A stretch of 64,000 nt of DNA. It comes from Candidatus Abzuiibacterium crystallinum. Lineage in GTDB: Bacteria; Omnitrophota; Omnitrophia; Omnitrophales; Abzuiibacteriaceae. A program made the translations under genes and the position numbers. This document shows, piece after piece, positions 2,814-48,167 of the stretch; position 1 is the stretch's first letter; each line of letters starts with the position of its first letter. The notes beneath the pieces are model-generated. The model worked only from the letters and a program-made list of their open reading frames with translations, was not told the DNA's origin and ran no database searches. The DNA lies in assembly GCA_002787155.1 (NCBI GenBank), contig PCVY01000065.1:1286-65285 (forward strand), read 5' to 3'.

Positions 2814-4157
2814 ATGAAACAAATTGTTTTACTGCTTGTTTGCACTACTTTTCTCTTTTCAATACCCGCCTCAGCCGATCCGAATGACGATTTATATACC
2901 CAAAAATTAAGACACCCTGAAGAAACTTCCGCGAATGCCATCCGTAGCCGCGCCCTCACCCGCTGGATTTTCGGATTACCGGGCCTCCCGATTGATTTAT
3001 TAAAAGCAGGCGCTGATCCGACGATGAGCTACCTCGAAAACAAGCGCATCGTTAAAAAAATTGATTGGGCATGGACTGAAATAAAAAAATATGGTTTCAA
3101 ACCTGAAACTCGTTTTGCGCCGGGCGGTTTCCGCTCCGGTTTGGGATTAAAAATCGAAGGGCATCGGTTATTCAAAACAGATCTTTCTTTACCTCATTTG
3201 CAATATAATGTCTTTGGCGGATTTGTGAACAAAGGAAAGAACGCGCATTATTATGATGTCGGAGCCGACTACAAAATATCATTTGCCAATAACCCCAGCC
3301 TTTATCACGCGAGCACCGCTGCCTTTGAGCATAGACCTCGGGAAGATTTTTTTGGTATCGGACCTGATACCAGTTTGGGAGATGAATCCGATTACAATAA
3401 AGACATGCTTCGCCTGGATACCCGGCTCGGTTATCAATGGACGTTTTCCCTCAAGACGGAGGGGTTCTTTCGCTACAGGCACATCCAGATTGGCAATGGC
3501 CACGAAGAGGACAGTTTTAGAATTAAAGAACATTTCACCGAGGATCAGGTGCCGGGCATTCATGGCAGCAATGTGATCGATTTGGGATTTCTTTTTGAGC
3601 ATGATACCCGTGACATGATTGAAGACCCGATGCAGGGCGGTTACGAAAAGTTTGAAATTTCATTCTCTGACGATGCAAGCGGTGATAATTTTCATTACAT
3701 GAACATTGAATTCCGTGCGGCCCGCTATTTCCAATTGCTCTCAGACCGCCGGATTTTAGCGCTTCGCTTTTATGCCGGGCGTTCGCAGCCTTTGGGCGGC
3801 GGCCAAGTACCTTTTTTTGATTTGCAGCGTTTGGGCGGCTACGGCAATCAAACCTCCGAAAGCGACATGTTACGGGGCTATGAATACAACCGTTTCTTTG
3901 ACCAAACCGCCATTGCCTTTACACCTGAGTATCGTTACAAAATTTGGAACTATAATAATTTTGATGCGGATTCGGTTATTTTTGCGGACATCGGCGGTGT
4001 GTCAAAAGAAATTCATTCGATGGGGTTTGACAAATTGCGCGTTGATTACGGTGTCGGGCTTCGTGTGAAACATCTTCGCGATACTTTTCTTTCGATTGAA
4101 GCAGCGCACGGGAACGAAGGAATCCAATTTTACATTAGGTCCAAAGCGCCTTTTTAA
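2814..4157 (+). CDS. Omp85/BamA-TamA family outer-membrane beta-barrel without evident POTRA domains
   Basis: Signal peptide MKQIVLLL...ASA; FFGIG, DTRD, RLGG...MLRGY...RF, EYRY, FADIG, YGVGLR, C-terminal Phe; start could be upstream (2721). Confidence 0.8.
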   Translation: MKQIVLLLVCTTFLFSIPASADPNDDLYTQKLRHPEETSANAIRSRALTRWIFGLPGLPIDLLKAGADPTMSYLENKRIVKKIDWAWTEIKKYGFKPETRFAPGGFRSGLGLKIEGHRLFKTDLSLPHLQYNVFGGFVNKGKNAHYYDVGADYKISFANNPSLYHASTAAFEHRPREDFFGIGPDTSLGDESDYNKDMLRLDTRLGYQWTFSLKTEGFFRYRHIQIGNGHEEDSFRIKEHFTEDQVPGIHGSNVIDLGFLFEHDTRDMIEDPMQGGYEKFEISFSDDASGDNFHYMNIEFRAARYFQLLSDRRILALRFYAGRSQPLGGGQVPFFDLQRLGGYGNQTSESDMLRGYEYNRFFDQTAIAFTPEYRYKIWNYNNFDADSVIFADIGGVSKEIHSMGFDKLRVDYGVGLRVKHLRDTFLSIEAAHGNEGIQFYIRSKAPF

Positions 4158-4170
4158 AGCGGGATAAACC

Positions 4171-5814
4171 ATGAAATTTTCAAGCACATTGTTAGGCATT
4201 TTAATCGGTTGCTCCGTCCTCTTGCCGACGGGACAAGCGGATTCTGCCAGTCTTTCCCGGCTTGATCAAAAAATTTCCGGTCGGGAAACAACTTTTTACC
4301 GTGAGTTTTTTGATCAAGTGGTCTATTACCCGCTTGCCAGACTTTTGCGGTGGGATCAATACATCACACGCCATGTCGGCATGGAAGCATTGGATGTGAA
4401 TGTATTTGACGAAGTACCCGATTCGGCCTTCTTTGAAAACCGACTGGGCAAACAATCAATGTCTATTTCCGAAATCGCAAAAGGGCCCGGCGGCACCCCG
4501 CCCGAAACAAAAGGGCCTTGGGTAGTTACCAAGGGTAAGGATGACGGTTACACCGTCGGGTTTTTTATCAAAGATGCCAAGGGTGATAAATATCTTTTGA
4601 AGTTTGACCCGGCTGATCATCCGGAAATGGCCACATCTGCTGAAATCATTGCCCACAAGTTTTTTTATGCTTTTGGCTACCATGTCCCGAGTTACGCCAT
4701 CGTTTATTTCAAACCCGATATTTTGGAGGCAGGACCAAACGCAACCTACTACAACGGAAACGGTTTTAAAAAGAAACTCGATAACAGCGCTATTCAAGAA
4801 TTGCTGCAAAAAGCACCGGTGACAAAAAACGGCCGTTATCGTGCCGTGGCGAGCCGTATTTTAGACGGTATTCCCAAAGGATACATGAGTTTAGAGGGCA
4901 GACGCTCAAGCGATCCGGACGATTTGATTCCGCACGAAGACCGCCGCGAGATTCGCGCGCTCGAAGTGATCGGGGCCTGGACAAATCAATATGATCTGCG
5001 TTCCGGCAACACGCTTGATATGTTAATCGATGAGAATGGGAAAGCTTACTTGAAACATTATATCATTGATTTTGGGTCCTCTTTCGGCAGCGCCGGCTAC
5101 CGGGCCAAGCACCCTTCCGCTGCTCATGAAACCGTGATCGACTTCGGGGCCATTGCGCGCGCCTTTGTTGAATTGAAAGTAGAAGATAAAGTATGGGAAG
5201 ACCGCTGGGATCAAAACGGAAGAACCATTGCTTATCAATCGTTGGGTTATTTCGATAATATCCATTTTAATCCTGCCGCCTGGCGCTCGCAGTTGGATCA
5301 AGAAGCCTTTCTCAGACTAACCGAAGCTGACGGGTATTGGGCTTCTAAAATCATTGCACGATTCAGCGATGAGATGATCCGCGCTGTTGTGAAAACGGGC
5401 GAAATCACCAACCAAGAAGCAGAATCATTTTTAATTGATACGCTGATCGAACGCCGGGATATGATTGTCCGTTACTGGTTCTCAAAAGCAGTCCCTCTTG
5501 AGTCCATCCAAGTAAAGCCGGTGAATACCACAACTTATTCGCTGAATTTTGAAGACCTGGCGGTGGCTCACGGTATAGACTCACCCATGAGCGTCAAATA
5601 CAGATGGCGCACTAAACGCGGGTCATGGCAGGAATACCAGGCCTCTCCAGCTTCTCTTCAGCTAGATACCGACCGCCTGAAAGAAACAGTTTTCATAGAA
5701 CGGTGGTCATCGGCGTCTCAGAAATGGTCATCACTCCCCCTTCGCCTCAAATTAAGCCGCTCAGCCTCTCAAGAACCGTTTCACTTAAGCGGCATTAATC
5801 GCGGGCACGATTAA
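4171..5814 (+). CDS. Exported protein-kinase-like fold protein (HipA/PI3-4K/CtkA-like motifs)
   Basis: Signal peptide; Gly-loop KGKDDGYTVGF, YLLKFD (beta3 Lys), AEIIA (alphaC Glu), DLRSGN catalytic loop, IIDFG. Confidence 0.7.
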   Translation: MKFSSTLLGILIGCSVLLPTGQADSASLSRLDQKISGRETTFYREFFDQVVYYPLARLLRWDQYITRHVGMEALDVNVFDEVPDSAFFENRLGKQSMSISEIAKGPGGTPPETKGPWVVTKGKDDGYTVGFFIKDAKGDKYLLKFDPADHPEMATSAEIIAHKFFYAFGYHVPSYAIVYFKPDILEAGPNATYYNGNGFKKKLDNSAIQELLQKAPVTKNGRYRAVASRILDGIPKGYMSLEGRRSSDPDDLIPHEDRREIRALEVIGAWTNQYDLRSGNTLDMLIDENGKAYLKHYIIDFGSSFGSAGYRAKHPSAAHETVIDFGAIARAFVELKVEDKVWEDRWDQNGRTIAYQSLGYFDNIHFNPAAWRSQLDQEAFLRLTEADGYWASKIIARFSDEMIRAVVKTGEITNQEAESFLIDTLIERRDMIVRYWFSKAVPLESIQVKPVNTTTYSLNFEDLAVAHGIDSPMSVKYRWRTKRGSWQEYQASPASLQLDTDRLKETVFIERWSSASQKWSSLPLRLKLSRSASQEPFHLSGINRGHD

Positions 5815-5821
5815 AACGCTC

Positions 5822-8266
5822 ATGTTTGCAGACTTCATTACAAAACTGATACAACCCATTGTTAAAATCCGCCGCAGCGAATGGCTGAAAGCGGGCATGA
5901 TGTTTATTTATGCCTTTACCATTTTTGCCACTCTCTACGTTTTTAAACCGGTCCGTTCTTCCCTTTATCTAGACGCCCGCGGCGCAGAAAACTTGTGGTT
6001 AGCTTACTTTTTTGAAGGTGTCGTTCTTTTTGTCATCACCTACCTTTATGTCAAACTAGCAGACAGATTTAAAAACAAGAATCACTTCTTTACCTTCACG
6101 ACTCTTTTTTTAATTTTCAATATCTTAATTTTCTACTTCTGCTTTCAAATGAACGTGAAAGAAAGCTGGCTGGTGCTCTTCTTTTACGGCTGGGTGGCCA
6201 CGTATTCGGTGACCGTTGCCACGCAATTTTGGACCATGGCTAATGATATTTTTAACATGGACGAAGCCAAACGGTTATTCGGATTTATCATCAGCGGCGG
6301 CAGTTTGGGCGGTGTGGTGGGCGGTGGTTTAACCAAATTGTTTGCCGAGCGGTTTGGAACGGAAAATTTGCTTCTCATGCCGGTCCTTTTTCTGACAATT
6401 TCGATTATTGTGACTGAAATTGTCTGGCGAAGCGAACGGACAAAGGCAGGCCCGCTTAAGGAAGTTAAGAAATCGGGTAAGCATGAAAGCCTCACTCGTG
6501 TTTTGCGGCTTTTATTTAAATCCAGGTACTTGCTCTTAATTGCCGGCATTGTGTTGTTTGCAAAAGCCGTCTCAACCATTGTGGATAATCAATTCAGCGG
6601 GGTCGTTGAACTGGCCATCCGTGAAAAAGATGTCCGCACTGCTTTCTTCGGCGGTTTCTTTTCGGCCCTCAACATGGTTTCTTTTATTTTGCAGCTTTAT
6701 GTCACCAGCAAAGTCCTGCGTTATTTAGGAATTAGTATCGCCCTTTTGATGCTTCCCGGCGGACTATTGATCGGTGCTTCTTTGACGATCTTATTCCCCA
6801 TCCTTCCCTTTGCCATGGCAGCCCGTATGTACGACGGCGGACTCAACTATTCGATTAATTTATTAAGCAAAGAAATTCTTTACCTGCCGGTCGCAAGTGA
6901 AACCCGTTACCGCGTAAAACCAGTGATTGACATGTTGGTTTTTCGTCTCGCCAAAGTATTTGCAGCCGCTTTGATTTTCATAGCCCTGAAGTTTGTCGGA
7001 TTGCGCGTTGATCAGCTGGGCATTGTTGTCCTGGTGATTCTGCCGTTTTGGTTGTGGACAGCTTGGCGGGTGAAACACGAGTATGTTCAATCAATTCGCC
7101 AGCTTTTAACTAATGAAAAACGCGTCAAACGTTTTAAAGAAACTTCCCAGAAGCGCGTGACGGACGTTTTGATGAATCTTTTTGAAGAAAAATCCTGCCA
7201 AGAATTAAGGGATTTATTTTATGACATTCCCTCGCATATGAGAAAAATGTCGGCGGCCGCTTGTCTGGCTTTTTATGGCGGCGGCAGAGACGTGGGTAAG
7301 GTAGGTAAATTAGTTCAAGAAATGGTGCGTTATGAAGCGCTGGAGTATCAAAAAAACAGGCCCTTGTTAAATCCGCGAACGGAGAGTACCGGTCATTACC
7401 AATGGGTGGATGAGTACCTGGTAAAATATCTCAAACTCGAACACCCCAGCGCTAAAAGCAAACTCAGTGAAAAAGAAAATGAAATTCTTGAAAGAATTTC
7501 GGGCATGCTGCAAGACACGAAATGCGATGGGTTGAGTAAACGCAAAGCCATCTCCATTTTAAGAACACTGGGAACGCAAAATGCTTTCGATTTGCTTCTG
7601 GGGGCCTTGCCGGTGACCCGTGATAATTCTATTCGTTTTGACATGATCAAGGGCATGAATCATATTCACACAAAATTATCCAATTATTCTATCCCGCAAA
7701 ATGCCGTTGAAGCCGAGGTCCGTTATGAAATTGAAAATCATAAAGCCATTTTAACTGTGATTCACTTCTATAAATCGCAGGAGAAAAAAACTTCTTCCGT
7801 TGATGAGGATTTTCTTTTAGCGACCCTCAAGATTATCCGGGAAGAAAGTCTTGAACGCATCTTTCGGTTATTGGGATTGATCTATCCAACCGAAGCGATT
7901 CAGACCATCTTCGAGCGTTTAACGGATGAAGAGGCTAGTGAAGACCTTCATGGCAAATCCATCGCCATCGAACTGTTAGGGCATATCGTCAAACCGGAAC
8001 TGTACCACCGCCTGCATCTCTTAGTCGATCATGACCGGTGGCATAAACACCGTCAAACAAACCCCAAAGAAGTCATTAAACATTTCTTGATGGGGGAAGA
8101 CTGCTGGTTTTCCGTGTGTGCTGCTTTTGTGATTGCAGAACTGAGAATGACAGAGCTATACTCGCTTTTTGAACATTTGAGCGGCCGAGAAGCGCCCATT
8201 GTCAAAGAAGCCGTTGCGATTGCTAAATCAAAAGCGGAATCTTTCGATACAGGTACAAACAAATAA
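5822..8266 (+). CDS. Npt1/TLC-like nucleotide (ATP/ADP) transporter, MFS fold, with C-terminal HEAT/ARM-like domain
   Basis: About 12 TM helices; KPVRSSL, QFWTMANDIFNMDEAKRLFG, SRYL, YSIN...KEILYLPV...RYRVKPVID; helical C-terminal half. Confidence 0.8.
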   Translation: MFADFITKLIQPIVKIRRSEWLKAGMMFIYAFTIFATLYVFKPVRSSLYLDARGAENLWLAYFFEGVVLFVITYLYVKLADRFKNKNHFFTFTTLFLIFNILIFYFCFQMNVKESWLVLFFYGWVATYSVTVATQFWTMANDIFNMDEAKRLFGFIISGGSLGGVVGGGLTKLFAERFGTENLLLMPVLFLTISIIVTEIVWRSERTKAGPLKEVKKSGKHESLTRVLRLLFKSRYLLLIAGIVLFAKAVSTIVDNQFSGVVELAIREKDVRTAFFGGFFSALNMVSFILQLYVTSKVLRYLGISIALLMLPGGLLIGASLTILFPILPFAMAARMYDGGLNYSINLLSKEILYLPVASETRYRVKPVIDMLVFRLAKVFAAALIFIALKFVGLRVDQLGIVVLVILPFWLWTAWRVKHEYVQSIRQLLTNEKRVKRFKETSQKRVTDVLMNLFEEKSCQELRDLFYDIPSHMRKMSAAACLAFYGGGRDVGKVGKLVQEMVRYEALEYQKNRPLLNPRTESTGHYQWVDEYLVKYLKLEHPSAKSKLSEKENEILERISGMLQDTKCDGLSKRKAISILRTLGTQNAFDLLLGALPVTRDNSIRFDMIKGMNHIHTKLSNYSIPQNAVEAEVRYEIENHKAILTVIHFYKSQEKKTSSVDEDFLLATLKIIREESLERIFRLLGLIYPTEAIQTIFERLTDEEASEDLHGKSIAIELLGHIVKPELYHRLHLLVDHDRWHKHRQTNPKEVIKHFLMGEDCWFSVCAAFVIAELRMTELYSLFEHLSGREAPIVKEAVAIAKSKAESFDTGTNK

Positions 8267-8273
8267 GTTTCCG

Positions 8274-9011
8274 ATGGTATTCATTCATTTCTCGAAACAA
8301 CTGAAGCAGGACATCTGGTTATGGGTCAGTACCGGCTTACTGGGTGTTTTTCTGCTGGGAATGAGCGGCTGCCAGTCGGTACCGCTCATGGGGGGTGTGG
8401 GTGCGCAGGGCGAGTTGATTTATTTAACGCCGATCCGTGACATCCCCAAACACATCCAAGAATGCGCCGAATTACAAGACCTCTCAAATGAAGAATCAAA
8501 AATTAACTATCTGATCTATCGCGTGCAAAAATCCGCTCTTCCCTTTACCCGAAACGGTTCCACTTATAGCAGTGAAAACGCGGCACAATTTCTCAGGTGG
8601 AAACTAAACCGGCCGAATTGGCGGCCGTTGGTCCGCAGCGCCCGTGAATTCGTTATCATTATTACCCGTGGTTCATCTAAATCCGGCTTACCTTATGAAG
8701 TAAAATTACCGGACAGAACACACCATGAACTTAAAGCCATTATGATCAATGAGCTTGATTTTCTGGAAGAATATTTAAAAACACGGGAAGCAGGATCTGC
8801 GGCTCATTTGCCCGTCAGCTCCAAAAAAACAGAGGAGGAATCCGCTCAGAATTTACAGCCGGTTCCAGAATCAGACATTCACCGCCGGCATAGTGAACCT
8901 CAACCATTCAGACGCCCGTTTGTTGCCTCACCGCGTTTTGACGATGACGACTATGGACAAACCTCATCCGTATCACCCGCCCAGCAAAACCGTCAGCAGC
9001 CCCGCACATGA
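8274..9011 (+). CDS. DUF5329 (YfeK-like) family lipoprotein
   Basis: Lipobox MSGC; INYLI...FTRNGSTYSSENAAQFLRWK...SAREFV...SSKSGLPY; low-complexity tail. Confidence 0.7.
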   Translation: MVFIHFSKQLKQDIWLWVSTGLLGVFLLGMSGCQSVPLMGGVGAQGELIYLTPIRDIPKHIQECAELQDLSNEESKINYLIYRVQKSALPFTRNGSTYSSENAAQFLRWKLNRPNWRPLVRSAREFVIIITRGSSKSGLPYEVKLPDRTHHELKAIMINELDFLEEYLKTREAGSAAHLPVSSKKTEEESAQNLQPVPESDIHRRHSEPQPFRRPFVASPRFDDDDYGQTSSVSPAQQNRQQPRT

Positions 9012-9781
9012 ATTTCACCGTTATTTGTCTCAATACTTGGGGACAAAACGAACCTTTTGAAAAACGAATGCGTCTCATCACTGCCGAAATCAGAAAATAC
9101 AAACCGCAAGTGGTTTGCCTGCAGGAAGTCTTTGAACCCGTCTTAACGCAAAAGCTCATCAAAGAAATCGGCTTCGGGCATGCGTTTGCCAATCTGGCCG
9201 CAGGGCTTTTGATTTTGTCGCATGACAGGATGGAAGATAAAAAGGAAGTCAAATATCAACATCAATCGACGCTCGAAAATAATGACCGCCGTTTTATCTT
9301 AACGGAGATTCATGCCAACGGAAAAAAATGCTGGATAGGCAACACGCATTTATCCTGGAAGGCGGCTGATGAGACAGCGCGCACCATGCAAACACGCGAA
9401 CTCGCTGCCACGCTGGACGCATTAAAAGCACCCGTGCTGGTGATGGGCGATTTTAACTGCACGCCGGAAAGCGAAGCAATGGCTGTGTTAAGTAAAAGCG
9501 GTTTTACCAATGTATATGACCGCCTTTACCCGGGGAAAAATGTTTTTACGTGGGACAATCAGCGAAACCCCTATCTTAAAACACATGCCGCCATCCTGCC
9601 CAATCGGCGCATTGACCATCTTTATATGAATCAAGCCTTTCAGGAAGTGTTTAAACCCCAAAGCTGCCGGCTCATTTTCACCACGCCTGATGAAGCGGGC
9701 GATTTCCCGTCCGATCACTTTGGTTGGCTAGCTACCTTCCGCACCTGGGGTCAGGTCCCGGACCTGACCCCAAGTCTTTGA
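9008..9781 (+). CDS. Endonuclease/exonuclease/phosphatase (EEP) family protein
   Basis: LNTW, CLQEV, NTHL, MGDFN, RIDH, PSDH motifs. Confidence 0.9.
   Translation: MNFTVICLNTWGQNEPFEKRMRLITAEIRKYKPQVVCLQEVFEPVLTQKLIKEIGFGHAFANLAAGLLILSHDRMEDKKEVKYQHQSTLENNDRRFILTEIHANGKKCWIGNTHLSWKAADETARTMQTRELAATLDALKAPVLVMGDFNCTPESEAMAVLSKSGFTNVYDRLYPGKNVFTWDNQRNPYLKTHAAILPNRRIDHLYMNQAFQEVFKPQSCRLIFTTPDEAGDFPSDHFGWLATFRTWGQVPDLTPSL
9746..9772. repeat. REP palindrome copy 1
   Basis: TGGGGTCAGGTCC-C-GGACCTGACCCCA, perfect 13-bp inverted repeat. Confidence 0.9.
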
Positions 9782-10374
9782 ACAAATTCTTGGCTACCAA
9801 GAATTCCGTTTCCAACAGCATTTTGCAATGGGTTTATATTGGTTATTAACCCTTTGTGGACAAAAGTCTGATAATCAACCGGCGATTGAAACTGATTCAT
9901 AATTTCCAATGAACCTAGAAAAGAGGGTGGTTCGTCACGCACAAAATAACGCATGCTTGACCAAACATAATCGACAGGATTGTCTACTAATTTGGCTTTG
10001 CATGGGTTTAGGTGAATATAGCGCGATAATTCTAAAAGATAGGTATCTTTATCAATAACAATCGATTTATATCTTCCTTGAAATAAATGACCAACTCGTT
10101 CGTGTCTATAATTAAATCGCATCGTATAAGTCCCAATTAATCTTTTCATAAAAACAGCGAGATTGGCCTGTTTGGTCTGAATGAGTAAATGAAAATGGTT
10201 GGGCATGATACAATAAGCATAAATAACAACTTCATCTTTCTCCGCACACTCAACCAATATGCTCAAAAACATACGATAGTCGTACTCTTCCCTTACAATT
10301 TCTCTCTTTTCGTTACCTCGAGAGAAAACGTGATAATAAGCACCTGGAAATTGTAGACGTAATGATCTTGCCAT
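9751..10374 (-). CDS. REP-associated tyrosine transposase (Y1/HUH, IS200-like)
   Basis: PGAYYHVFSRGN, YCIMPNHFHLL (HUH), GHLFQGRYKS, RYIHLNP (catalytic Tyr), WSS. Confidence 0.9.
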   Translation of the reverse strand: MARSLRLQFPGAYYHVFSRGNEKREIVREEYDYRMFLSILVECAEKDEVVIYAYCIMPNHFHLLIQTKQANLAVFMKRLIGTYTMRFNYRHERVGHLFQGRYKSIVIDKDTYLLELSRYIHLNPCKAKLVDNPVDYVWSSMRYFVRDEPPSFLGSLEIMNQFQSPVDYQTFVHKGLITNINPLQNAVGNGILGSQEFVQRLGVRSGT

Positions 10375-10465: not shown

Positions 10466-10492
10466 TGGGGTCAGGTCCGGGACCTGACCCCA
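10466..10492. repeat. REP palindrome copy 2
   Basis: TGGGGTCAGGTCC-G-GGACCTGACCCCA, the reverse complement of copy 1. Confidence 0.9.
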
Positions 10493-39368: not shown

Positions 39369-39737
39369 ATGAATGATTCTTATTTTGCTCAGTACTTATT
39401 TTTAGGTCTCTTTCTGCTTGTTGCGATCGCCTTTCCGATTCTTCCCCTGGTTTTAGCTAAAATCGTTGCACCCAAGAAAAATAATCCGATTAAAAATTCA
39501 ACTTATGAATGCGGTATCGAAGCCTCCGGAGATGCCTGGATTCAATTTAAAGCGCAATATTATGTTTATGCGCTCATTTTTATCGTGTTTGACATCGAAA
39601 CCATCTTTATTTACCCATGGGCTGTCGCCTACAACCAATTAGGCTTGTTTGCTTTACTGGCCATGGCTCTTTTCTTATTTCTTCTGACCTTCGGCCTGAT
39701 TTACGCCTGGAAAAAGAACATCTTGGAGTGGAAATAA
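39369..39737 (+). CDS. nuoA: Complex I subunit A
   Basis: [16 protein letters not shown]. Confidence 0.95.
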
Positions 39738-39739
39738 CG

Positions 39740-40381
39740 ATGACCCATGCGCCCAATGTCTCCCAAGTTGACCCCGCGCTCAAAAGCGAACTCGCCAAAA
39801 AAGGCATCGCAGTGATGAAGCTGCAGGAACTCTACAATTGGGGCCGCCGCTCTTCCATCTGGCCGATGCAGTTTGGTTTGGCTTGTTGTGCCATCGAAAT
39901 GATTGCCACCGCTTGCGCACGTTATGATATTGACCGCTTTGGCGCTGGACTTTTTCGTGCTTCTCCCCGTCAATCCGACCTGATGATTGTTGCAGGAACC
40001 GTCACCAAAAAAATGGCGCCGCAAGTTGTCAGACTCTATAATCAAATGCCCGAACCCAAATATGTCATTACGATGGGAGCCTGTTCTATTTCCGGCGGAC
40101 CTTTTAAAGAAGGTTACAATGTTTTAAAAGGCATCGACCGCTACATTCCCGTTGACGTTCATTTGCCGGGCTGCCCACCGCGTCCGGAAGCCTTGCTTCA
40201 CGGTCTTATGAAACTCCAGGCTAAAATCGACCATCAAGACATTGAAAAAACCGAATGGTATCAAAAAGGATTGAAACGTGAATTTCCGATCCCGGAATTT
40301 GGGCCCAATGGTCTTTTGCCTCCCTATAATCCGGAAGTTTGGCAGCCGCAGAAACGCAAAGAAATAACCGTGCCGGCATGA
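39740..40381 (+). CDS. nuoB: Complex I subunit B
   Basis: [28 protein letters not shown]. Confidence 0.95.
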
Positions 40382-40839
40382 AAACCACTGAAGAAATCAA
40401 AACTGATCTTGAATCAAAAACAGGGACTTCTATTACAGTTCAAGGTGAGGCCTTGATGGTGCCTAAAGAGAAATTATTTGATGTGGCAAAATATTTAAAA
40501 GATACTCCCGATTACCAAATGGATTATTTATCTTCGGTAACCGGCACCGATTACAAAGACGGTTTGGAAGTTACCTATCACCTTTACTCCATCGCTAAAA
40601 AAGAAGGCCCTGTTGTTTTAAAAACCAAAACTGACCGTGAAAAAGGCGTGGTGCCGTCTTTGACACCTCTTTGGCGCGGTGCGGAGTTTCAAGAACGCGA
40701 AGCATACGATTTGGTGGGCATCCATTTTGAAGGTCACCCCGATTTAAGAAGGATTTTAATGTGGGATGGGTTTGAACACTACCCTCTGCGTAAAGATTAC
40801 ACACAGGAAGATCAGGACCGGAACCCAGAACAATTTTAA
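40378..40839 (+). CDS. nuoC: Complex I subunit C
   Basis: [27 protein letters not shown]. Confidence 0.92.
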
Positions 40840-40840
40840 A

Positions 40841-41992
40841 ATGATGGAACACACGCTTATTTCCAAACCAGATTTTGATACCCAAACGCTTGAAGTCAGT
40901 TTGGGGCCGCAACACCCTTCAACGCACGGTGTATTTCGCATGAATGTGGTGTTGGATGGTGAGACGATCGTCAAATTAAAACCCGTCATGGGTTATCTGC
41001 ACCGCAATCACGAAAAGTTAGCCGAGAACATGTCTTATCTGGGCTCCATGCCTTATACCGATCGGCTAGATTACATTTGTTCGATGACGAACAACTTTGC
41101 CTATGCCCTAGCCGTTGAAAAATTGGCGGGTATCGAAGTGCCGGAACGCGCTCAATATATCCGCATCATCATGGCAGAACTCACACGTCTTGTGAATCAC
41201 ACGCTTTTAATTGGATTTTTGCTCAATGATTTGGGTGCTTTTTTTACTCCGGTCCTTTATGCTTTTCGCGAACGCGAAAAAATTTTAGACCTGTTTGAAG
41301 AAGTGGCAGGTTCGCGCATGATGTGTAACTATTTCCGCTTCGGCGGCGTCAAAGCGGATTTAACGCCTGATTTTCTGCCGCGCGTGAAAGAACTCATTCA
41401 AAACTATCCGCGTTTCTTAGACGAATTTGAAGCTTTGCTTTCTGAAAATGAGATTTTAATGGCGCGCACCCAAAAAGTAGGTGTGCTCCCGAAAGAATTG
41501 GCCGTGAGCGCCAGCATCACAGGCCCGATGCTGCGAGCCTCAGGGGTTCCTTATGATATTCGCAAAGTAGATCATTACAGTCTTTATGACCGATTTAAAT
41601 TTCGTGTCCCGATCGGAGAGCACGGCGATGTGTACGACCGTTATTACATTCGCGTTCTTGAAATGAGAGAAAGTATTAAGATTTTAGATCAAGCCGTCAA
41701 AGAAATCCCGTCAGGTGATGTAATTTCAAAAGTTGGAGCCGGTTTTGCCAAAGCGCCGCGCAATTTTAAACCCAAAGCCGGCGAAGCTTACGGCCGGATT
41801 GAAGCACCCAAAGGCGAGCTGGGATTTTTCGTCGTCTCAGACGGAACCAACAAGCCTTACCGTTATCACGTTCGCGCACCAAGCTTTATCAATTTGACCA
41901 TCTTAGAAGACATGTGTTTAGGACACAAAGTGCCCGATGCCATTATTATTTTAGGCAGTATTGACATCGTTTTAGGCGAAGTAGACCGATAA
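40841..41992 (+). CDS. nuoD: Complex I subunit D
   Basis: [31 protein letters not shown]. Confidence 0.95.
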
Positions 41993-41995
41993 AAA

Positions 41996-42098
41996 AATAA
42001 AAATGAAGAATGGAGAATGAAGAATTTAGGTGACCTCCGGTCATTTAAATGTGCAAAACGCTCCAAAATTCTTAACTTTTCATTCTTAATTCCTAATT
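41996..42098. repeat. 7-mer inverted-arm cassette between nuoD and nuoI
   Basis: AATGAAG AATGGAG AATGAAG AATTTAG ... CAAAATT CTTAACT TTTCATT CTTAATT CCTAATT. Confidence 0.7.
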
Positions 42099-42107
42099 GA
42101 GGATTTT

Positions 42108-42761
42108 ATGTTTGGAATTGGTGTTTTAAAAGGTATGGCAGTCACGTTCAAAAATTTTGTAGAAAGTTACTACAAAAAAGAGCGTCTGACTACCATCGAA
42201 TACCCGGAAAAAAGGCTGGCGGAAAAGGAACGCTTCCGCAACTTTCCTTTTCTGATCTTTGACGAAAAACCGGAAGATCCGCGGTGTGTGGCTTGTGACA
42301 TCTGCGCCAAAGAATGTCCCCCACAATGTATTACCATTGTGCGCGCCCAGGATGCTCAAGGCAAACCACTTAAAAAACCGGCTACGTTCGACATTGATTA
42401 TTCAATTTGCATGAATTGCGGTGTTTGTGAAGAAGTTTGCCCGTTTGACGCTATTTTCATGGATCATGAATTCGAATTGGCCGAATACGGCCGCTTTGAA
42501 GACTTAAATTACACGATTGATCGGTTGCTCAAACCCAAAGAACATTTCATGAAGATACGCCCGACCGATGCCACACGTATTGAAGCCGAATTAAAGAAAA
42601 AAGAAAACGCTAAAAAAGCAGCGGCTGAGAAAGCGGCAGCGGCAGCCAAAGCCAAAGCGGAAGCTGCCAAAACACAAGCCTCTCAAGTACCGGATACGAA
42701 ACCAGAAACTAAACCTAACGAACCCGCTCAACCGGCAGATCCGCCGGCTGAGGCAAAATAA
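42108..42761 (+). CDS. nuoI: Complex I subunit I with Ala/Lys/Pro-rich tail
   Basis: TIEYPE, CVACDICAKECP, CMNCGVCEEVCP. Confidence 0.9.
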   Translation: MFGIGVLKGMAVTFKNFVESYYKKERLTTIEYPEKRLAEKERFRNFPFLIFDEKPEDPRCVACDICAKECPPQCITIVRAQDAQGKPLKKPATFDIDYSICMNCGVCEEVCPFDAIFMDHEFELAEYGRFEDLNYTIDRLLKPKEHFMKIRPTDATRIEAELKKKENAKKAAAEKAAAAAKAKAEAAKTQASQVPDTKPETKPNEPAQPADPPAEAK

Positions 42762-42762
42762 C

Positions 42763-43908
42763 ATGGACCAATTATTCGTTCACATTGATCAAGCGATTAT
42801 CCATTGGGCACAAGCCGTGCTTCCCGATTGGATGGCTGTCATCGTCGCGATGAAAATTCCGATTGTTGCGATCGCCATTTTTGGTCCCGTGACCATGATG
42901 TATTTAACTTTAATTGAACGGAAACTTTTGGCACGCATCCAAAACCGTTTTGGCCCGAACCGCGTAGGAAAATTTGGTTTATTGCAACCGCTTGCCGATG
43001 GCGTCAAAATGCTTACCAAGGAAGATATTGTGCCGGAGAAAGCCGATAAAATCGCCCATTTGCTGGCCCCGATTTTAATTGTGATTCCCGCACTTTTGGT
43101 TTTTGCGGTTCTGCCTTTTGGCCGCAATATGATTGCAGTCGATTTAAATATCGGCGTGTTATTCTTTTTGGCCATGTCAGGCACCACGACCTTATTTATT
43201 TTTACGGCAGCTTGGGCATCACACAACAAATTTTCACTTTTGGGCGGAATGCGCTCGGTCGCGCAAATGATTTCGTATGAAATTCCGTTTGTGCTTTCCG
43301 TCGTTCCTGTTTTGGTGGTCGTTGGTTCATTCTCAACCGTTGCGATCGTGGAAGCACAGCCGGGTCTCCATTGGTTTGTCTTTACCCCGTGGGGTGCCGT
43401 GGGCTTTTTTATCTTTTTTATTTGCGCCGTTGCCGAAGTCAACCGCACACCTTTTGATTTGCCCGAAGCTGAATCCGAACTTGTTGCCGGTTTTCATACG
43501 GAATACAGCGGCATGAAATTTGCTTTGTTTTACATGGCAGAATTTATGAATGTTTTTACGGTGTCTGCTTTGGTTGCAACCGTTTTTCTAGGTGGCTGGC
43601 AGGGACCCATCTTGCCCAGTTGGGTTTGGTTTCTATTGAAAACTTATACACTTATTTTAATTATGATGTGGTTTCGCGGCACTTTTCCCCGGCTGCGGGC
43701 GGACCAATTAATGGGTTTTGCTTGGAAATTCTTGCTGGAATTAACTTTTGTGAATATCATCGTGGCCGCTATTTGGTATGAGATGAGATCTCCGCTGAAC
43801 CATTTGACGGCAGCTGCTATTTTAATTGTAACGATTATTGTCTTATTTCAATTTAATAAAACCGAAATACCAAAAAAGCGTATTTACAAATACGCTTACG
43901 CAGATTAA
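42763..43908 (+). CDS. nuoH: Complex I subunit H
   Basis: ERK...QNRFGPNRVG, AQMISYE, NRTPFDLPEAESEL. Confidence 0.95.
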   Translation: MDQLFVHIDQAIIHWAQAVLPDWMAVIVAMKIPIVAIAIFGPVTMMYLTLIERKLLARIQNRFGPNRVGKFGLLQPLADGVKMLTKEDIVPEKADKIAHLLAPILIVIPALLVFAVLPFGRNMIAVDLNIGVLFFLAMSGTTTLFIFTAAWASHNKFSLLGGMRSVAQMISYEIPFVLSVVPVLVVVGSFSTVAIVEAQPGLHWFVFTPWGAVGFFIFFICAVAEVNRTPFDLPEAESELVAGFHTEYSGMKFALFYMAEFMNVFTVSALVATVFLGGWQGPILPSWVWFLLKTYTLILIMMWFRGTFPRLRADQLMGFAWKFLLELTFVNIIVAAIWYEMRSPLNHLTAAAILIVTIIVLFQFNKTEIPKKRIYKYAYAD

Positions 43909-43960
43909 TTAAGGAAGAATTTTCTCACTTGGGGGCTAACCCCTCTGGCATTCAAAATAT

Positions 43961-44479
43961 ATGGAAGTTCTGACTGCAATTTCAAAAGTCGGCATTTATG
44001 TTATCTTTGGCGTAACCCTTTTGGGCGCCATGATGGCCGTCACGCTTCGAAACATATTTCATGCGGCGCTTAGTTTGGCTCTGACGTTGATTGGCGTAGC
44101 GGCGGTCTTCTTTGTTTTAAGAGCGGAATTTCTGGGCGCGGTTCAAATTTTGCTGTATGTTGGCGGTATTATGATTCTGGTCATTTTTACTGTGATGTTA
44201 ACGACTCGAATCGGAGACCGCACCATCCCGACTTCTAACCACCAGCAATGGCCTGTTTTGATCGGCGCGCTGCTTCTTCTTTTATACTTTGTCAGGATGA
44301 TCGGAAAAACCCCCTGGTCTATCAAAAGCGAACTGGCCGTTGTCAGTGCCGTTCAAATTGGAAAATCTTTGGTAAGCACTTTTATCTTTCCATTCGAATT
44401 AACGGCAGTTATTTTAGTAGCCATCTTAATTGGAACGGTGATTTTAGCCAAAAGCGACGAAGGAGAAGAAAAATCATGA
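43961..44479 (+). CDS. nuoJ: Complex I subunit J
   Basis: AEFLGAVQILLYVGGI, PFE. Confidence 0.9.
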   Translation: MEVLTAISKVGIYVIFGVTLLGAMMAVTLRNIFHAALSLALTLIGVAAVFFVLRAEFLGAVQILLYVGGIMILVIFTVMLTTRIGDRTIPTSNHQQWPVLIGALLLLLYFVRMIGKTPWSIKSELAVVSAVQIGKSLVSTFIFPFELTAVILVAILIGTVILAKSDEGEEKS

Positions 44480-44784
44480 TTCCATTGCATCATATTTTGT
44501 TTTTCTCATCGACTCTCTTTTGCATCGGTTTGTTTGGCGCACTTTCCAGGCGGCACGTGGTTGGCATTTTGATTTCGGTTGAGATTATGCTGAATGCTGC
44601 CAATGTAAACTTGGTCGCTTTTTCGCGCTGGACGGGTTTGATACCTGTCAACGCACAAGTTTTTGCTATTTTTATCATTACATTAGCAGCGGCAGCGGCA
44701 GCGGTGGCGCTTGCCATTGTTTTAACCATTTATCGAAACCGTAAAACTATTTATACAAACGAAATTGACCTGCTTAAATGGTAA
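44476..44784 (+). CDS. nuoK: Complex I subunit K
   Basis: LISVEIMLNAANVN; the second conserved Glu (AAE) reads AAAAAA here. Confidence 0.9.
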   Translation: MIPLHHILFFSSTLFCIGLFGALSRRHVVGILISVEIMLNAANVNLVAFSRWTGLIPVNAQVFAIFIITLAAAAAAVALAIVLTIYRNRKTIYTNEIDLLKW

Positions 44785-46694
44785 ATAACGCATCTACTCT
44801 CATTTGCTTCATTCCTTTTCTGCCGTTGATTGCTTTTGCCATTAATATTTTCTTCGGCAAACAGTTAGGCGAAAAAAGTGCATGGGTTACACTGGCCTGC
44901 AGTACGTGTTCGTTTGTGCTCGCCATGCTGGTCATTCGTCCCGTCTTAAGCGGCGCTGTCATTCAAGTAAATTTTGATTGGATTGTATTTGGCAGCGGTG
45001 CACTTCAATTTGGATTTTTGGCGGATCCTTTGGCGGCCATCATGCTGTTTGTCGTCACATGCATCGGTTCTTTGATCGTGCTGTATTCAATCGGTTACAT
45101 GCATGGTGATCCGCGTTTTTCGCGCTTTTTTGCTTACCTGGGTTTATTCTTGTTTTCAATGCTGGGCTTGGTGTTGTCTACCAACTTAGTTCAAATCTAT
45201 ATTTTTTGGGAATTGGTGGGCGTTTGCTCTTACTTTTTAATCGGTTTTTGGTTTGAAAAAGATTCTGCCGCCAATGCAGGCAAAAAAGCCTTTATCACAA
45301 ACCGCATTGGCGACGTGGGTTTTTTTATCGGGATTGCGCTTTTGTTTTATGGGGCGGGCACTGTCAACTTTACCGATCTCACGCATGAGTATTTTCATCA
45401 CCACCACCAAGCTATCTTAGGTATTGCGGGGCTTTTTCTCTTTTGCGGCGCCATCGGAAAATCAGCTCAATTTCCATTGCATGTTTGGCTGCCGGACGCG
45501 ATGGAAGGCCCGACTCCTGTCAGTGCCTTGATTCACGCTGCTACCATGGTCGCCGCGGGCGTTTATTTGGTGGCACGTTTGTTTCCGCTTTATGAAGCGT
45601 TTCCTCATTCCGCCAGTGTCGTAGCCGTCATCGGCACGACGACGGCTTGTATGGGGGCTTTTATTGCGCTCTCGGCCAACGACATTAAGAAAGTGCTGGC
45701 TTACTCAACCATTAGTCAGCTGGGTTACATGATTGCCGCCATCGGGATAGGCGCCATGAGCGCCGGCATGTTTCACTTGATGACACATGCCTTCTTCAAA
45801 GCCCTGCTTTTCTTAGGTGCGGGTAGTGTGATTCACGGAACCGGAACGCAAGATATGCGTGAAATGGGAGGTTTGTTTAAAGCCATGCCCAAAACAGCCT
45901 GGACATTTTTAATGGCGACGCTGGCCATTTCAGGCATTCCGCCGTTTGCCGGTTTTTGGAGCAAAGATGAAATTTTAACCCACGCTTTTCTGCATCATCA
46001 TCCCGTGGTGTTTGGTTTGCTGTTAGCCGCTGCTTTTTTGACGGCTTTTTACATGTTTCGCTTGGTCTTCATGACTTTTTTTGGAAAAACGCGCGGCCAC
46101 TTCCACGCACACGAGTCTCCTGCCGTCATGACAGTCCCTCTCATGATTCTGGCTTTCTTTGCGATTGCGGCGGGTTTTCCCGGTTCACCTTTCATGCATC
46201 ACTGGTTTCAAGCTTTTGTACTCCCCGGGGAAGCAGTCAAAGCAAATTTTGGTCTCATGATGCTTTCTTCCGTTGTGGCTTTGTCTGCCATTGGATGTGC
46301 TTACTATTGTTACATTGTCAAACCGGAAATGCCAGCCCGCATCACACAAGCCATTAAACCGCTCTATCAAGCATCATTAAACAAATTATGGTTTGATGAA
46401 ATCTACGGCGCGACGGTTGTGCGTTTATTTCAGTGGCTTGCCGGCACGCTATTTTTATTTGATCAAAAAATTGTCGACGGCGCGGTCAACGGTTCTGCGC
46501 GTGTCGGGTTATGGATAAGCAAAATTAAGAATTGGATAGATCAATATATCGTGGACGGCGCCGTCAATTTGGTTGGCGCCATCACGCGTATCACTTCTTC
46601 CATTTTAAGACTATTTCAAACAGGTGTTATTCACCATTATTTATTGGTCATGTTTATTGGCATACTCATGATTCTTTACGGAATCACGAAATAA
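44778..46694 (+). CDS. nuoL: Complex I subunit L
   Basis: WELVG, KAFITNRIGD, KSAQFPLHVWLPDAMEGPTP, THAFFKA. Confidence 0.95.
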   Translation: MVNNASTLICFIPFLPLIAFAINIFFGKQLGEKSAWVTLACSTCSFVLAMLVIRPVLSGAVIQVNFDWIVFGSGALQFGFLADPLAAIMLFVVTCIGSLIVLYSIGYMHGDPRFSRFFAYLGLFLFSMLGLVLSTNLVQIYIFWELVGVCSYFLIGFWFEKDSAANAGKKAFITNRIGDVGFFIGIALLFYGAGTVNFTDLTHEYFHHHHQAILGIAGLFLFCGAIGKSAQFPLHVWLPDAMEGPTPVSALIHAATMVAAGVYLVARLFPLYEAFPHSASVVAVIGTTTACMGAFIALSANDIKKVLAYSTISQLGYMIAAIGIGAMSAGMFHLMTHAFFKALLFLGAGSVIHGTGTQDMREMGGLFKAMPKTAWTFLMATLAISGIPPFAGFWSKDEILTHAFLHHHPVVFGLLLAAAFLTAFYMFRLVFMTFFGKTRGHFHAHESPAVMTVPLMILAFFAIAAGFPGSPFMHHWFQAFVLPGEAVKANFGLMMLSSVVALSAIGCAYYCYIVKPEMPARITQAIKPLYQASLNKLWFDEIYGATVVRLFQWLAGTLFLFDQKIVDGAVNGSARVGLWISKIKNWIDQYIVDGAVNLVGAITRITSSILRLFQTGVIHHYLLVMFIGILMILYGITK

Positions 46695-46705
46695 GGGAGC
46701 TTATT

Positions 46706-48166
46706 ATGAATTTTCCGATTTTGACTTGGTTGGTTTTTCTGCCTTTGCTTGGCATGTTGGCTGTTATGCTCACGCCTAAACAAAATGAAAAGCTGATCAA
46801 ACAAATTGCGACTGTTGTGAGCGCTTTGCTGTTTCTTTTGTCACTCAAGGTCTTGATGGCTTTCAACCTTCATGACGGCGGTATCCAACTGGCTGAGAAA
46901 GTCATGTGGATTCCTCAGTTAAACGTTCATTATTACTTGGGGATTGACGGCATCAGCTTGCCGATGGTGGTTTTAACGGCTCTTTTGTCACTTTTGGCTT
47001 GCGTGGCTAGTTATGGTATTAAAGACCGTGTGAAGGAATATTTTGCGCTTTATCTTTTGCTTGAAACAGGCATGCTGGGCACTTTTTTAGCGTTGGATTT
47101 ATTCCTTTTTTATGTTTTTTGGGAAGTGGTTTTGGTCCCGATGTATTTTTTAATCGGCATTTGGGGCGGTCCCCGGAAAGAATACGCCGCCATTAAGTTT
47201 TTTCTCTACACGTTGGCAGGTAGTTTATTCATGTTGTTGGGAATCTTGGCCATTTACTTTACCAGCACCCCGCAAACTTTCGACATGATTGCACTTCGCC
47301 AAAATAACTTCGCGGCTGGTTTTCAGCATATTGTTTTCTTGGCCCTTTTCTTAGGTTTTGCGATCAAAGTTCCGATTTGGCCGTTTCACACCTGGCTGCC
47401 TGATGCGCACGTCGAGGCTCCGACACCCATTAGCGTGATTCTGGCCGGTGTACTCTTGAAAATGGGTACTTATGGATTTTTCAGGATCAGTTATCCCATT
47501 TTACCCGAAGGCGCTCATTGGTTTGCCCCGTGGATGGGTATTTTAGCGGCCATCGGTATTATTTACGGCGGATTTGTGGCACTTGCTCAAACGGATTTCA
47601 AAAAACTCGTGGCTTATTCCAGCGTGAGTCATATGGGTTTTGTTTTGTTAGGTTTGGCTTCGTGCAGCGCCATGGGAATGAACGGTGCGCTTCTTCAAAT
47701 GTTCAGTCACGGCGTTTTGACGGGTGCCCTCTTTTTGCTGGTCGGCGCACTTTATGACCGGGCTCATACGCGTGATTTAAGCGCCTTCGGCGGTTTGGGT
47801 GCTGTTATGAAAGTTTACGCCGGTATTTTAATTTTTGTTTCGATGGGTTCGCTTGGCTTGCCCGGTTTAAGCGGTTTTGTGGCCGAATTTATGATTTTAC
47901 TCGGCACATTTAAGATTTATCCGGTCATCACCGGACTTTCCTGTATTGGTATTTTATTGGCGGCTTGCTATATGCTCTACACCGTTCAGCGTGTTTTGCT
48001 AGGCAAAGTGAACCCCAAGTGGGAAAAGCTGACAGACATGACCGGCCGGGAAATTTTTACGCTTGCACCGCTCATGATTGTGACGCTGGCAATCGGTGTT
48101 TACCCCATCTTGATTTTGAAATTCATGACACCCGCTATCACAGCCTTGGTAGGACTTTTGTCATAA
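46706..48166 (+). CDS. nuoM: Complex I subunit M
   Basis: FWEVVLVPMY, HTWLPDAHVEAP, LLKMG, AYSSVSHMG. Confidence 0.95.
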   Translation: MNFPILTWLVFLPLLGMLAVMLTPKQNEKLIKQIATVVSALLFLLSLKVLMAFNLHDGGIQLAEKVMWIPQLNVHYYLGIDGISLPMVVLTALLSLLACVASYGIKDRVKEYFALYLLLETGMLGTFLALDLFLFYVFWEVVLVPMYFLIGIWGGPRKEYAAIKFFLYTLAGSLFMLLGILAIYFTSTPQTFDMIALRQNNFAAGFQHIVFLALFLGFAIKVPIWPFHTWLPDAHVEAPTPISVILAGVLLKMGTYGFFRISYPILPEGAHWFAPWMGILAAIGIIYGGFVALAQTDFKKLVAYSSVSHMGFVLLGLASCSAMGMNGALLQMFSHGVLTGALFLLVGALYDRAHTRDLSAFGGLGAVMKVYAGILIFVSMGSLGLPGLSGFVAEFMILLGTFKIYPVITGLSCIGILLAACYMLYTVQRVLLGKVNPKWEKLTDMTGREIFTLAPLMIVTLAIGVYPILILKFMTPAITALVGLLS

Positions 48167-48167
48167 C

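What the first reader, a model, noticed from the sequence alone, without database searches (positions are those of the whole stretch)
2814..9781. Omp85 barrel + exported kinase + ATP/ADP-translocase-like transporter + lipoprotein + phosphatase: candidate extracytoplasmic phosphorylation system
Seen: five tightly packed co-oriented genes (gaps of 13, 7 and 7 nt, then a 4-nt overlap). The 547-aa protein has a signal peptide and all core kinase motifs (K, E, DxxxxN, DFG). The next gene has Npt/TLC signatures. Established: the periplasm normally lacks ATP, and TLC carriers exchange ATP/ADP and are usually read as host-energy-parasitism markers. Inference: here the carrier may export ATP to fuel a periplasmic or surface kinase whose substrate, or the kinase itself, passes through the POTRA-less Omp85 barrel. 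The EEP enzyme could reverse or recycle. This would reinterpret such translocases.
Basis: partly seen in the sequence, partly recalled or inferred. Interest (0 to 1): 0.85.

Follow-up and report, generated by a model that had tools for sequence, protein, structure and literature searches.

The report
Periplasmic kinase with own ATP carrier
This bacterium carries a conserved gene set for an outer-membrane barrel, an exported enzyme with a predicted kinase fold that is predicted to dock on the barrel's inner face, and a relative of ATP/ADP carriers; the enzyme's active-site residues have decayed in nearly all relatives where the carrier is not found, so the carrier likely supplies ATP to the space between the membranes rather than stealing it from a host.

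Summary
The five genes and their spacing are confirmed. Barrel, kinase and carrier form a real module: the barrel adjoins the kinase in 75 of 80 related loci, and 50 of 51 carrier-bearing genomes in a 221-genome phylum sample have the kinase. The 547-aa protein models as an atypical kinase (CtkA/Fam20/PI4K-like, Z 12-14) with an FnIII-like tail. It is predicted to bind the barrel's periplasmic side (0.85 vs best control 0.24). Key result: five catalytic residues are intact in 37 of 37 kinases beside a carrier, but in only 2 of 32 where no carrier was found. Structural residues stay conserved, and the decay recurs in several lineages (8 independent pairs, none opposite; p 0.06, or 0.03 post hoc). 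Best reading (0.6): the carrier exports ATP to a periplasmic kinase. Transport direction and substrate are untested, and one genome is a counter-example. DUF5329 tracks the active module. The EEP enzyme does not belong (0 of 80 loci). This questions the published host-ATP-theft reading of Omnitrophia translocases. Eight literature searches listed no description, but this scan noted the module before on other DNA.

The parts
2814..4157 (+). POTRA-less (noNterm-type) Omp85 barrel, 447 aa, with signal peptide and an N-terminal arm (about residues 25-85) predicted to dock the kinase; extra to the genome's likely BamA
   Evidence: PF01103 E 3e-18; LRGY and FADIG motifs; separate 799-aa Omp85 ORF on C32, read as BamA from its length; interface
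4171..5814 (+). Exported atypical kinase, 547 aa: signal peptide, barrel-docking arm (39-94), kinase domain (about 84-444; K123/G126/G130, K144, E158, D275/R277/N280, D300), FnIII-like domain (441-540)
   Evidence: AlphaFold pLDDT 93; Foldseek and VIA matches to CtkA, Fam20, PI4KII-alpha, CotH; N-terminal hydrophobic segment in 229 of 238 homologues
5822..8266 (+). NTT/TLC-family carrier (about residues 1-435) with a C-terminal HEAT-like extension, 814 aa; the only PF03219 gene found in the genome
   Evidence: PF03219 E 8.5e-16, weak HEAT_2; matches to solved plastid and chlamydial carriers E 1.8e-8 and 6.8e-6; conserved K42, R45, N141, K366, R375, K378
8274..9011 (+). DUF5329 (YfeK-like) exported protein, probably a lipoprotein (C33); lineage-specific accessory that tracks the active module
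   Evidence: PF17263 E 3e-17; 43 of 49 DUF5329 genomes carry the carrier; conserved motifs decay beside decayed kinases in family f1
9008..9781 (+). EEP-family phosphoesterase without signal segment; a family-level neighbour, not part of the conserved module
   Evidence: PF03372; 0 of 80 loci; kept in G022 and G144 beside a decayed kinase, no carrier found

Best explanation
The barrel, kinase and carrier genes form a conserved module in which the inner-membrane NTT-HEAT carrier likely swaps cytoplasmic ATP for periplasmic ADP to fuel an exported, predicted atypical kinase that is predicted to hang from the periplasmic face of a dedicated Omp85 barrel. Shown: gene order, co-occurrence, intact motifs, and selective loss of the ATP-site residues where the carrier is not found. 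Predicted: kinase fold and docking. Inferred: ATP as cargo, outward direction, and the target. For the target I favour an envelope lipid or glycan at the outer membrane's inner leaflet (about 0.45) over a protein such as DUF5329 (about 0.35) or a soluble metabolite (about 0.2). Barrel and kinase also have a catalysis-independent role, since both persist as full-length ORFs after carrier and active site are lost.
For: (1) Barrel within 300 nt of the kinase in 75 of 80 loci, carrier in 48-50 of 80. (2) In 221 genomes of the own phylum: kinase 87, carrier 51, both 50, carrier within 5 kb in 42 of 51. (3) K-E-D-N-D intact in 37 of 37 kinases with a carrier in the locus vs 2 of 32 in genomes where none was found; nine-residue set chosen afterwards 37 of 37 vs 0 of 32. 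(4) Of 63 columns at least 95% conserved in carrier-linked kinases, the ten that decay most include nine ATP-site positions; 46 of the other 53 stay at 0.91 or more. (5) Eight independent pairs on a 97-row tree: 4.9 same, 0 opposite, 3.1 no difference (median p 0.0625); nine-residue set 6/0/2 (p 0.031). Two Acidobacteriota kinases without a carrier are also decayed. (6) Fold Z 13.7 CtkA, 12.9 Fam20C, 12.9 PI4KII-alpha, 12.5 CotH. (7) Complex score 0.85 vs best control 0.24, runs agree in at least 93% of contacts, partner pLDDT at least 89; this mark was reached by 116 of 157 solved and 2 of 215 mismatched pairs, roughly applicable here. Contacts lie on the pre-barrel arm and two periplasmic turns (topology from motif positions). 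(8) One kinase-Omp85 fusion (P0248) and one kinase-PAP2 fusion (P0245). (9) Changing phosphatase neighbours in 26 of 80 loci; the DSP and metallophosphoesterase ones have signal-like N-termini. (10) The genome encodes ATP synthase and complex I subunits.
Against: No transport or enzyme data. The carrier is far from the characterised exchangers (TIGR00769 48 bits vs cut-off 387), and no NTT-HEAT protein had been characterised in Major et al. 2017 (PMC5381601). Co-decay shows coupling, not direction or cargo. G309 (one 5.34-Mb contig) has all nine residues intact, yet no carrier was found by two searches. G036, G112, G361, G367 and G395 keep the five core residues without a close carrier. G295 has a carrier and a decayed kinase. 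27 of 44 Acidobacteriota genomes with a carrier lack this kinase family. The a priori tree test does not reach p 0.05, 22 of the 32 carrier-less genomes are one clade, and the genomes are incomplete assemblies. The only fusion evidence is a single protein cluster.
Confidence: 0.6

Rival explanations
1. External-nucleotide reading (the published symbiosis view, extended): ATP from a host or prey enters the periplasm, the carrier imports it, and the kinase uses the same outside pool; both are lost when that supply is lost.
For: Characterised NTTs import ATP (PMC5381601); Seymour et al. read Omnitrophia translocases this way (PMC10066038); it also predicts joint loss.
Against: The same module sits in Acidobacteriota and other lineages with 4-8 Mb genomes. 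The genome encodes its own ATP synthase. The carrier gene is almost always tied to this kinase (42 of 51 within 5 kb). A plain ATP-theft carrier gives no reason for the kinase's active site to track it.
Confidence: 0.15
2. Reverse chemistry: the kinase-fold enzyme moves phosphate from an outside donor (polyphosphate, inositol phosphates) onto ADP in the periplasm, and the carrier runs in its textbook direction (ATP in, ADP out) to harvest energy or phosphate.
For: Needs no change of transport direction and explains the co-decay. Neighbours include Siw14-type, purple-acid-type and phytase-like phosphatases.
Against: The fold neighbours are forward kinases (function recalled). Only high-energy donors could drive it. 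Phosphatases would compete for the donor.
Confidence: 0.12
3. The carrier moves the kinase's substrate or product, or acts as a sensor through its HEAT (elsewhere HEAT-cNMP) tail, and the ATP comes another way.
For: Divergent carrier; relatives carry HEAT and cNMP domains or sit near cytoplasmic signalling genes; G309 keeps an intact kinase without a carrier found.
Against: Short carriers without the tail serve intact kinases in many loci. Basic residues that align with those of the solved ATP/ADP carriers are conserved. No other periplasmic ATP source is evident.
Confidence: 0.1
4. Barrel plus kinase fold is only a structural outer-membrane complex; catalysis and carrier are incidental.
For: 32 genomes keep barrel and full-length kinase without a carrier found; the docking residues stay conserved; the own genome has a second, decayed copy.
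Against: 37 of 37 carrier-linked kinases keep all nine ATP-site residues across deep branches.
Confidence: 0.03

Closest known systems
Eukaryotic secretory-pathway kinases (Fam20C, Fam20B-type) fed by luminal ATP (SLC35B1/AXER; the carrier name is recalled and also appears in an earlier scan note)
   Same: Atypical kinase fold (Z 12-13 to Fam20 structures), export signal, work outside the cytosol, need for a nucleotide exchanger
   Different: Bacterial periplasm; about 10% identity; docked on an Omp85 barrel; FnIII-like tail; the carrier is NTT-family and encoded beside the kinase
NTT-HEAT fusion carriers (Major, Embley and Williams 2017, PMC5381601)
   Same: TLC domain with C-terminal HEAT-like extension, in bacteria not known as intracellular parasites, function uncharacterised
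   Different: The parts read (1-3 of 4) name no kinase or barrel neighbour; no cNMP domain here; carrier presence tracks a neighbouring kinase's active site
Canonical Npt1/Tlc1/plastid NTT1 ATP/ADP translocases
   Same: Homologous 12-TM MFS-type carrier; several aligned charged residues kept
   Different: Far below the NCBIfam cut-off; partial Pfam match; proposed outward use
noNterm Omp85 and enzyme-bearing Omp85 proteins (Heinz and Lithgow 2014, PMC4104836; PlpD, Hanson et al. 2024, PMC11116518)
   Same: Omp85 barrel without POTRA; PlpD shows that an Omp85 barrel can hold an enzyme domain in the periplasm
   Different: The enzyme is a separately encoded kinase (fused in P0248) bound through an N-terminal arm; neither text, as searched or read, links such barrels to kinases
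Bacterial atypical kinases CtkA, CotH, HipA and PI4K-like lipid kinases
   Same: Shared fold and D-x4-N / DFG-type motifs
   Different: They use cytoplasmic or host ATP (recalled); no Pfam family matched this protein

Membership tests
PI3K/PI4K-Fam20-CotH-HipA atypical kinase fold | Bilobal kinase fold | tested here: met
   Model pLDDT 93; VIA Z 13.7 (rmsd 4.2, 229 aligned) CtkA, 12.9 (3.8, 249) Fam20C, 12.9 (4.5, 241) PI4KII-alpha
PI3K/PI4K-Fam20-CotH-HipA atypical kinase fold | Beta3 Lys, alphaC Glu, catalytic D-x4-N, metal-binding Asp | tested here: met
   K144, E158, D275, N280, D300; roles assigned from motif and predicted secondary structure, not from a residue-level superposition
PI3K/PI4K-Fam20-CotH-HipA atypical kinase fold | ATP-dependent phosphotransfer | not testable with these tools
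   needs an assay
Fam20C family (PF06702) | Profile match | tested here: not met
   No Pfam or NCBIfam family at E 0.1; Atlas feature score 0.81 is a lead only
TLC/NTT carriers (PF03219) | Profile match above cut-off | tested here: met
   58 bits vs 21; matches 9j3j and 9j3n
Canonical ATP/ADP translocases (TIGR00769) | Score above curated cut-off | tested here: not met
   48 vs 387 bits
Canonical ATP/ADP translocases (TIGR00769) | Nucleotide-binding residues | tested here: inconclusive
   Several aligned charged or polar residues are conserved, others are not; the structure paper was not held
Canonical ATP/ADP translocases (TIGR00769) | ATP/ADP counter-exchange | not testable with these tools
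   needs a transport assay
NTT-HEAT fusions | C-terminal HEAT repeats | tested here: inconclusive
   HEAT_2 17.9 bits, below cut-off 27.7, in this copy; above cut-off in more distant homologues
NTT-HEAT fusions | [quoted passage not shown] | not tested
   no tree with their reference set was built
noNterm Omp85 | Omp85 barrel with lid-lock motifs and no POTRA domain | tested here: met
   PF01103 hit, no POTRA hit, 447 aa, LRGY and FADIG
BamA | POTRA domains and equivalog score | tested here: not met
   16.9 vs 1050 bits; separate 799-aa Omp85 ORF in the genome
Lipoprotein (DUF5329 gene) | Lipobox Cys after a hydrophobic segment | tested here: inconclusive
   M-S-G-C33 is not a strict lipobox; alignment consensus shows GCA; no SignalP available

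The most novel reading that the evidence does not exclude
Many diderm bacteria run a deliberate periplasmic ATP economy. NTT-family carriers export ATP (perhaps other nucleotides) to exported kinases and related enzymes, giving a reversible phosphorylation cycle at the outer membrane, a bacterial counterpart of Golgi Fam20 kinases. Most 'ATP/ADP translocases' scored as parasitism markers in Omnitrophia are this export module.
Probability: 0.45. Interest if true: 0.92.

Novelty: categorically new. Interest (0 to 1): 0.83.

Why it matters
The periplasm is taught as ATP-free (established knowledge). A dedicated ATP supply to a barrel-docked kinase would be a new kind of envelope chemistry and would give a testable job to two orphan families, NTT-HEAT carriers and noNterm Omp85 barrels. 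It also bears on how genomes of uncultured bacteria are read: K03301 is counted as a symbiosis or predation marker (PMC10066038; PMC13755416). In this phylum sample 50 of 51 carrier-bearing genomes have the kinase and 42 have the genes within 5 kb. The natural carrier-less, active-site-decayed copies are ready-made negative controls.

Tried and rejected
EEP as a member: rejected. L064 looked like a barrel-kinase fusion, but a run of unknown bases joins the two parts, so it is not counted. The four 1147-1176-aa longer homologues have C-terminal halves with no Pfam or barrel match; unexplained. PDB sequence searches for the kinase gave nothing significant. No kinase match in the plasmid collection. 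The DUF5329 model (pLDDT 95.5) had no Foldseek match at E 0.001; the wider structural search and an Atlas look-up did not complete. No RNA holder was listed. Promoter and terminator scans were at or near shuffle level. The first tree did not finish. The barrel tree of the own class alone gave 5 pairs, p 0.125. The carrier structure paper was not held. Bacteroidota metallophosphoesterase-Omp85 fusions, which I recall as possibly kinase-bearing, were not reached and not tested.
Full report
Observation. The five ORFs, their lengths and the gaps (13, 7, 7, -4 nt) are as stated. Pfam gives Omp85, nothing, TLC + MFS (+ sub-threshold HEAT), DUF5329 and EEP. The genome has a second locus on contig C24 with barrel, kinase and a DUF5329-like gene but no carrier. 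It has only one PF03219 gene and a separate 799-aa Omp85 ORF that I read as BamA from its length.

The kinase. It has at least 1380 homologues among 7999 scored candidates, and 2600 representatives at 50% identity. The model from 119 sequences has pLDDT 93. Residues about 84-444 match CtkA (Z 13.7), Fam20C (12.9), PI4KII-alpha (12.9), Hydra Fam20 (12.6) and CotH (12.5); residues 441-540 are FnIII-like (Z about 8, a common arrangement). Foldseek agrees weakly (best E 3.7e-4). By a crude hydropathy rule, 229 of 238 homologues of 500-620 aa have a hydrophobic N-terminal segment and 1 has an internal one; SignalP was not available. The roles of K123/G126/G130, K144, E158, D275/R277/N280 and D300 are assigned from motif and predicted secondary structure.

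Which genes belong. In the best 80 of 189 confirmed loci the barrel is within 300 nt of the kinase in 75; three of the five misses are at contig ends. The carrier is present in 48-50 depending on the query (28 of 40 loci with wide flanks), DUF5329 in 28 and the EEP in 0. Other phosphatases occur in 26 of 80: DSP/Siw14-type 11, PAP2 5, metallophosphoesterase 5, HAD 5. The DSP and metallophosphoesterase proteins have signal-like N-termini by eye; the HADs do not. The EEP sits beside the module in two same-family genomes where the kinase is decayed and no carrier was found, so it is local synteny. One true kinase-Omp85 fusion (P0248) and one kinase-PAP2 fusion (P0245) were seen. The apparent fusion in L064 is an assembly gap.

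Genome-level distribution. Among 221 genomes of the phylum, the kinase is in 87 of 90 of the own class and 0 of 131 others. The carrier is in 51 genomes, 50 of them with the kinase, 42 within 5 kb on one contig. The exception, G027, has a distant 491-codon carrier. This mirrors Seymour et al. (PMC10066038, passages), who found K03301 in Omnitrophia and Aquiviventia plus one distinct copy in Gorgyraia and read it as ATP scavenging; that these are the same genes is my inference. DUF5329 is in 49 genomes, 43 with the carrier; four of the six others are weak hits. In the phylum of G221 (record titled Acidobacteriota), leaving out the unpublished G273: kinase 20 of 110, carrier 44 of 110, both 17. 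In the phylum of G222: kinase match in 22 of 71 (some fragments), and all 22 have some carrier match, five of them only a distant one.

The natural experiment. I fetched kinase regions for 34 of the 37 genomes with no carrier found (three held only short fragments) and for 43 of the 50 with one. One partial gene was dropped. G164 turned out to have a carrier fragment at a contig edge, so it left the carrier-less group, and it is not among the 37 either. The five core residues are intact in 37 of 37 kinases with a carrier in the locus, in 2 of 32 carrier-less ones, and in 7 of 11 copies whose genome has a carrier elsewhere. One of the 30 differs only by Glu to Asp. With four more residues chosen after seeing the data, the counts are 37 of 37 and 0 of 32. 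The decay is selective: of 63 highly conserved columns the ten worst are G130, K123, N280, D300, K144, R277, E158, P442, D275 and G126, while 46 of the other 53 stay at 0.91 or more. Reading frames stay full length; two rows had stops in the matched stretch. Different clades use different substitutions. On a 97-row tree with the catalytic regions removed, carrier state changes 10 times. Eight independent pairs give 4.9 concordant, 0 discordant and 3.1 uninformative (median p 0.0625), or 6/0/2 (p 0.031) with the post hoc set. There I coded the five genomes with only a distant carrier as lacking it, a judgement call, and two carrier-linked Acidobacteriota kinases count as 'not intact' only for a Glu-to-Asp change. 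Against: G309 has an intact site and no carrier found by two searches, G295 the reverse, and five carrier-less copies keep the five core residues. 22 of the 32 carrier-less genomes form one clade, and all absences are 'not found' in incomplete assemblies.

Where the kinase sits. Barrel (22-447) plus kinase (25-547) with ATP and Mg scored 0.85 against a best control of 0.24. The runs agree in at least 93% of contacts and the partner pLDDT is at least 89. The mark was reached by 116 of 157 solved and 2 of 215 mismatched pairs, counts that hold only roughly for this job. No like complex turned up by sequence. Barrel contacts are the pre-barrel arm (25-85), 310-313 and 373-389. The last lies between the strand after the LRGY loop and the FxDxG strand; with LRGY on extracellular loop 6 and FxDxG on strand 13 (PMC11358297, passage) this is a periplasmic turn. 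Kinase contacts (39-94, 194-199, 314-347) include columns that stay conserved in decayed copies. So the predicted site is periplasmic. PlpD is a precedent for an Omp85 barrel holding an enzyme there (PMC11116518, abstract and outline).

The carrier. It is homologous to the solved plastid and chlamydial ATP/ADP carriers, with conserved K42, R45, N141, D255, K350, K366, R375 and K378 across 33 homologues. It is far below the canonical family's cut-off. Major et al. (PMC5381601, parts 1-3 of 4 read) describe NTT-HEAT fusions in free-living bacteria as uncharacterised. I also looked at 20 hand-picked carrier loci from genomes that lack this kinase. Three have small kinase-like proteins with signal-like N-termini, three an exported-looking metallophosphoesterase (four loci in all), one an exported-looking PPDK-type protein, and five a Rossmann protein with a Tat-like start (Pfam run on two). 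The rest show no such neighbour. This hints at a wider role in feeding exported nucleotide-using enzymes but is not a controlled count.

Mechanism. A catalytic site outside the cytoplasm needs ATP, and that site is kept almost only where this carrier is kept. The simplest reading is ATP out, ADP back (0.6). The same pattern would follow if both parts used outside nucleotides (0.15), if the enzyme ran in reverse (0.12), or if the carrier moved substrate, product or signal (0.1). The genome encodes ATP synthase and complex I subunits, so it need not steal ATP. The target is unknown. Lipid-kinase fold neighbours, PAP2 partners and the membrane position lean towards a lipid or glycan. DUF5329, whose conserved Arg/Lys/Ser motifs decay beside decayed kinases in one clade and whose E. 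coli relative yfeK is in the sigmaE regulon (PMC2731931, one passage), could be a substrate or phosphate reader; E. coli has DUF5329 but no TLC match, so it is not dedicated to this module.

Novelty. Eight full-text searches listed no title or abstract describing the module. The library lacks most subscription papers, and I saw no supplements. Heinz and Lithgow (PMC4104836, passages) and Bettin et al. contain no occurrence of 'kinase'. A 2026 paper still uses the translocase as a predation marker (PMC13755416, passages). Earlier unchecked notes of this scan describe the same module in other genomes; a six-word look-up for the carrier-linked decay in Omnitrophota returned nothing. The parts belong to known superfamilies, but their combination as an ATP-fed periplasmic kinase matches no bacterial system I could find. 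Interest 0.83.

Noticed in passing
L003:7046-10500 (G000 contig C24): Second barrel-kinase-DUF5329 locus in the same genome, without carrier; catalytic D to R and N to S, DUF5329 motifs decayed. Its barrel groups with the family's own copies, while the window's copy groups elsewhere although it holds the chromosomal position seen in G022: possible replacement or old paralogy.
   Followed up: partly
L173, L175, L176: NTT-HEAT(-cNMP) carriers beside a different family of small (270-300 aa) signal-bearing kinase-like proteins, up to four in tandem, plus exported metallophosphoesterases.
   Followed up: partly
L184:10095-13064: 990-aa protein with a signal-like N-terminus and PPDK_N/PEP-utiliser domains directly after NTT-HEAT and a probable cNMP gene: another candidate exported ATP user.
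   Followed up: partly
L170, L171, L172, L180, L181: Short NTT carriers next to NAD-binding epimerase-like proteins with Tat-like starts: possible NAD supply to the periplasm.
   Followed up: partly
L166-L169: About 500-aa NTT carriers beside a divergently oriented undecaprenyl diphosphate synthase gene in four genomes.
   Followed up: no
G309 C1:2517089-2518507 (L202): Intact kinase and barrel in an apparently single-contig genome with no NTT found: counter-example, or a different carrier.
   Followed up: partly
P0268-P0271: 1147-1176-aa proteins with this kinase at the N-terminus and about 600 unannotated C-terminal residues.
   Followed up: no
window 9751-10374 (-): Y1_Tnp (IS200/REP-type) transposase-like gene; the same GGGGTCAGGTCCCGGACCTGACCCC palindrome occurs at about 9746-9771 (in the EEP gene's 3' end) and 10466-10492, suggesting an inserted element that supplies the EEP's last codons.
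   Followed up: no
G000 contig C73 (787-codon frame) and C45: A further Omp85-like ORF with an N-terminal stretch resembling the kinase-docking arm, and a third DUF5329-like gene.
   Followed up: no
L004, L005, L006, L008, L009, L011, L036: A BBP2 porin gene follows the module in 7 of 80 loci, all close relatives.
   Followed up: no
window 39369-49607, 49836-56843 and 58748-64000: Complex I genes, a pilin-like cluster with a 1228-aa protein lacking any Pfam match, and an F-type ATP synthase operon.
   Followed up: partly
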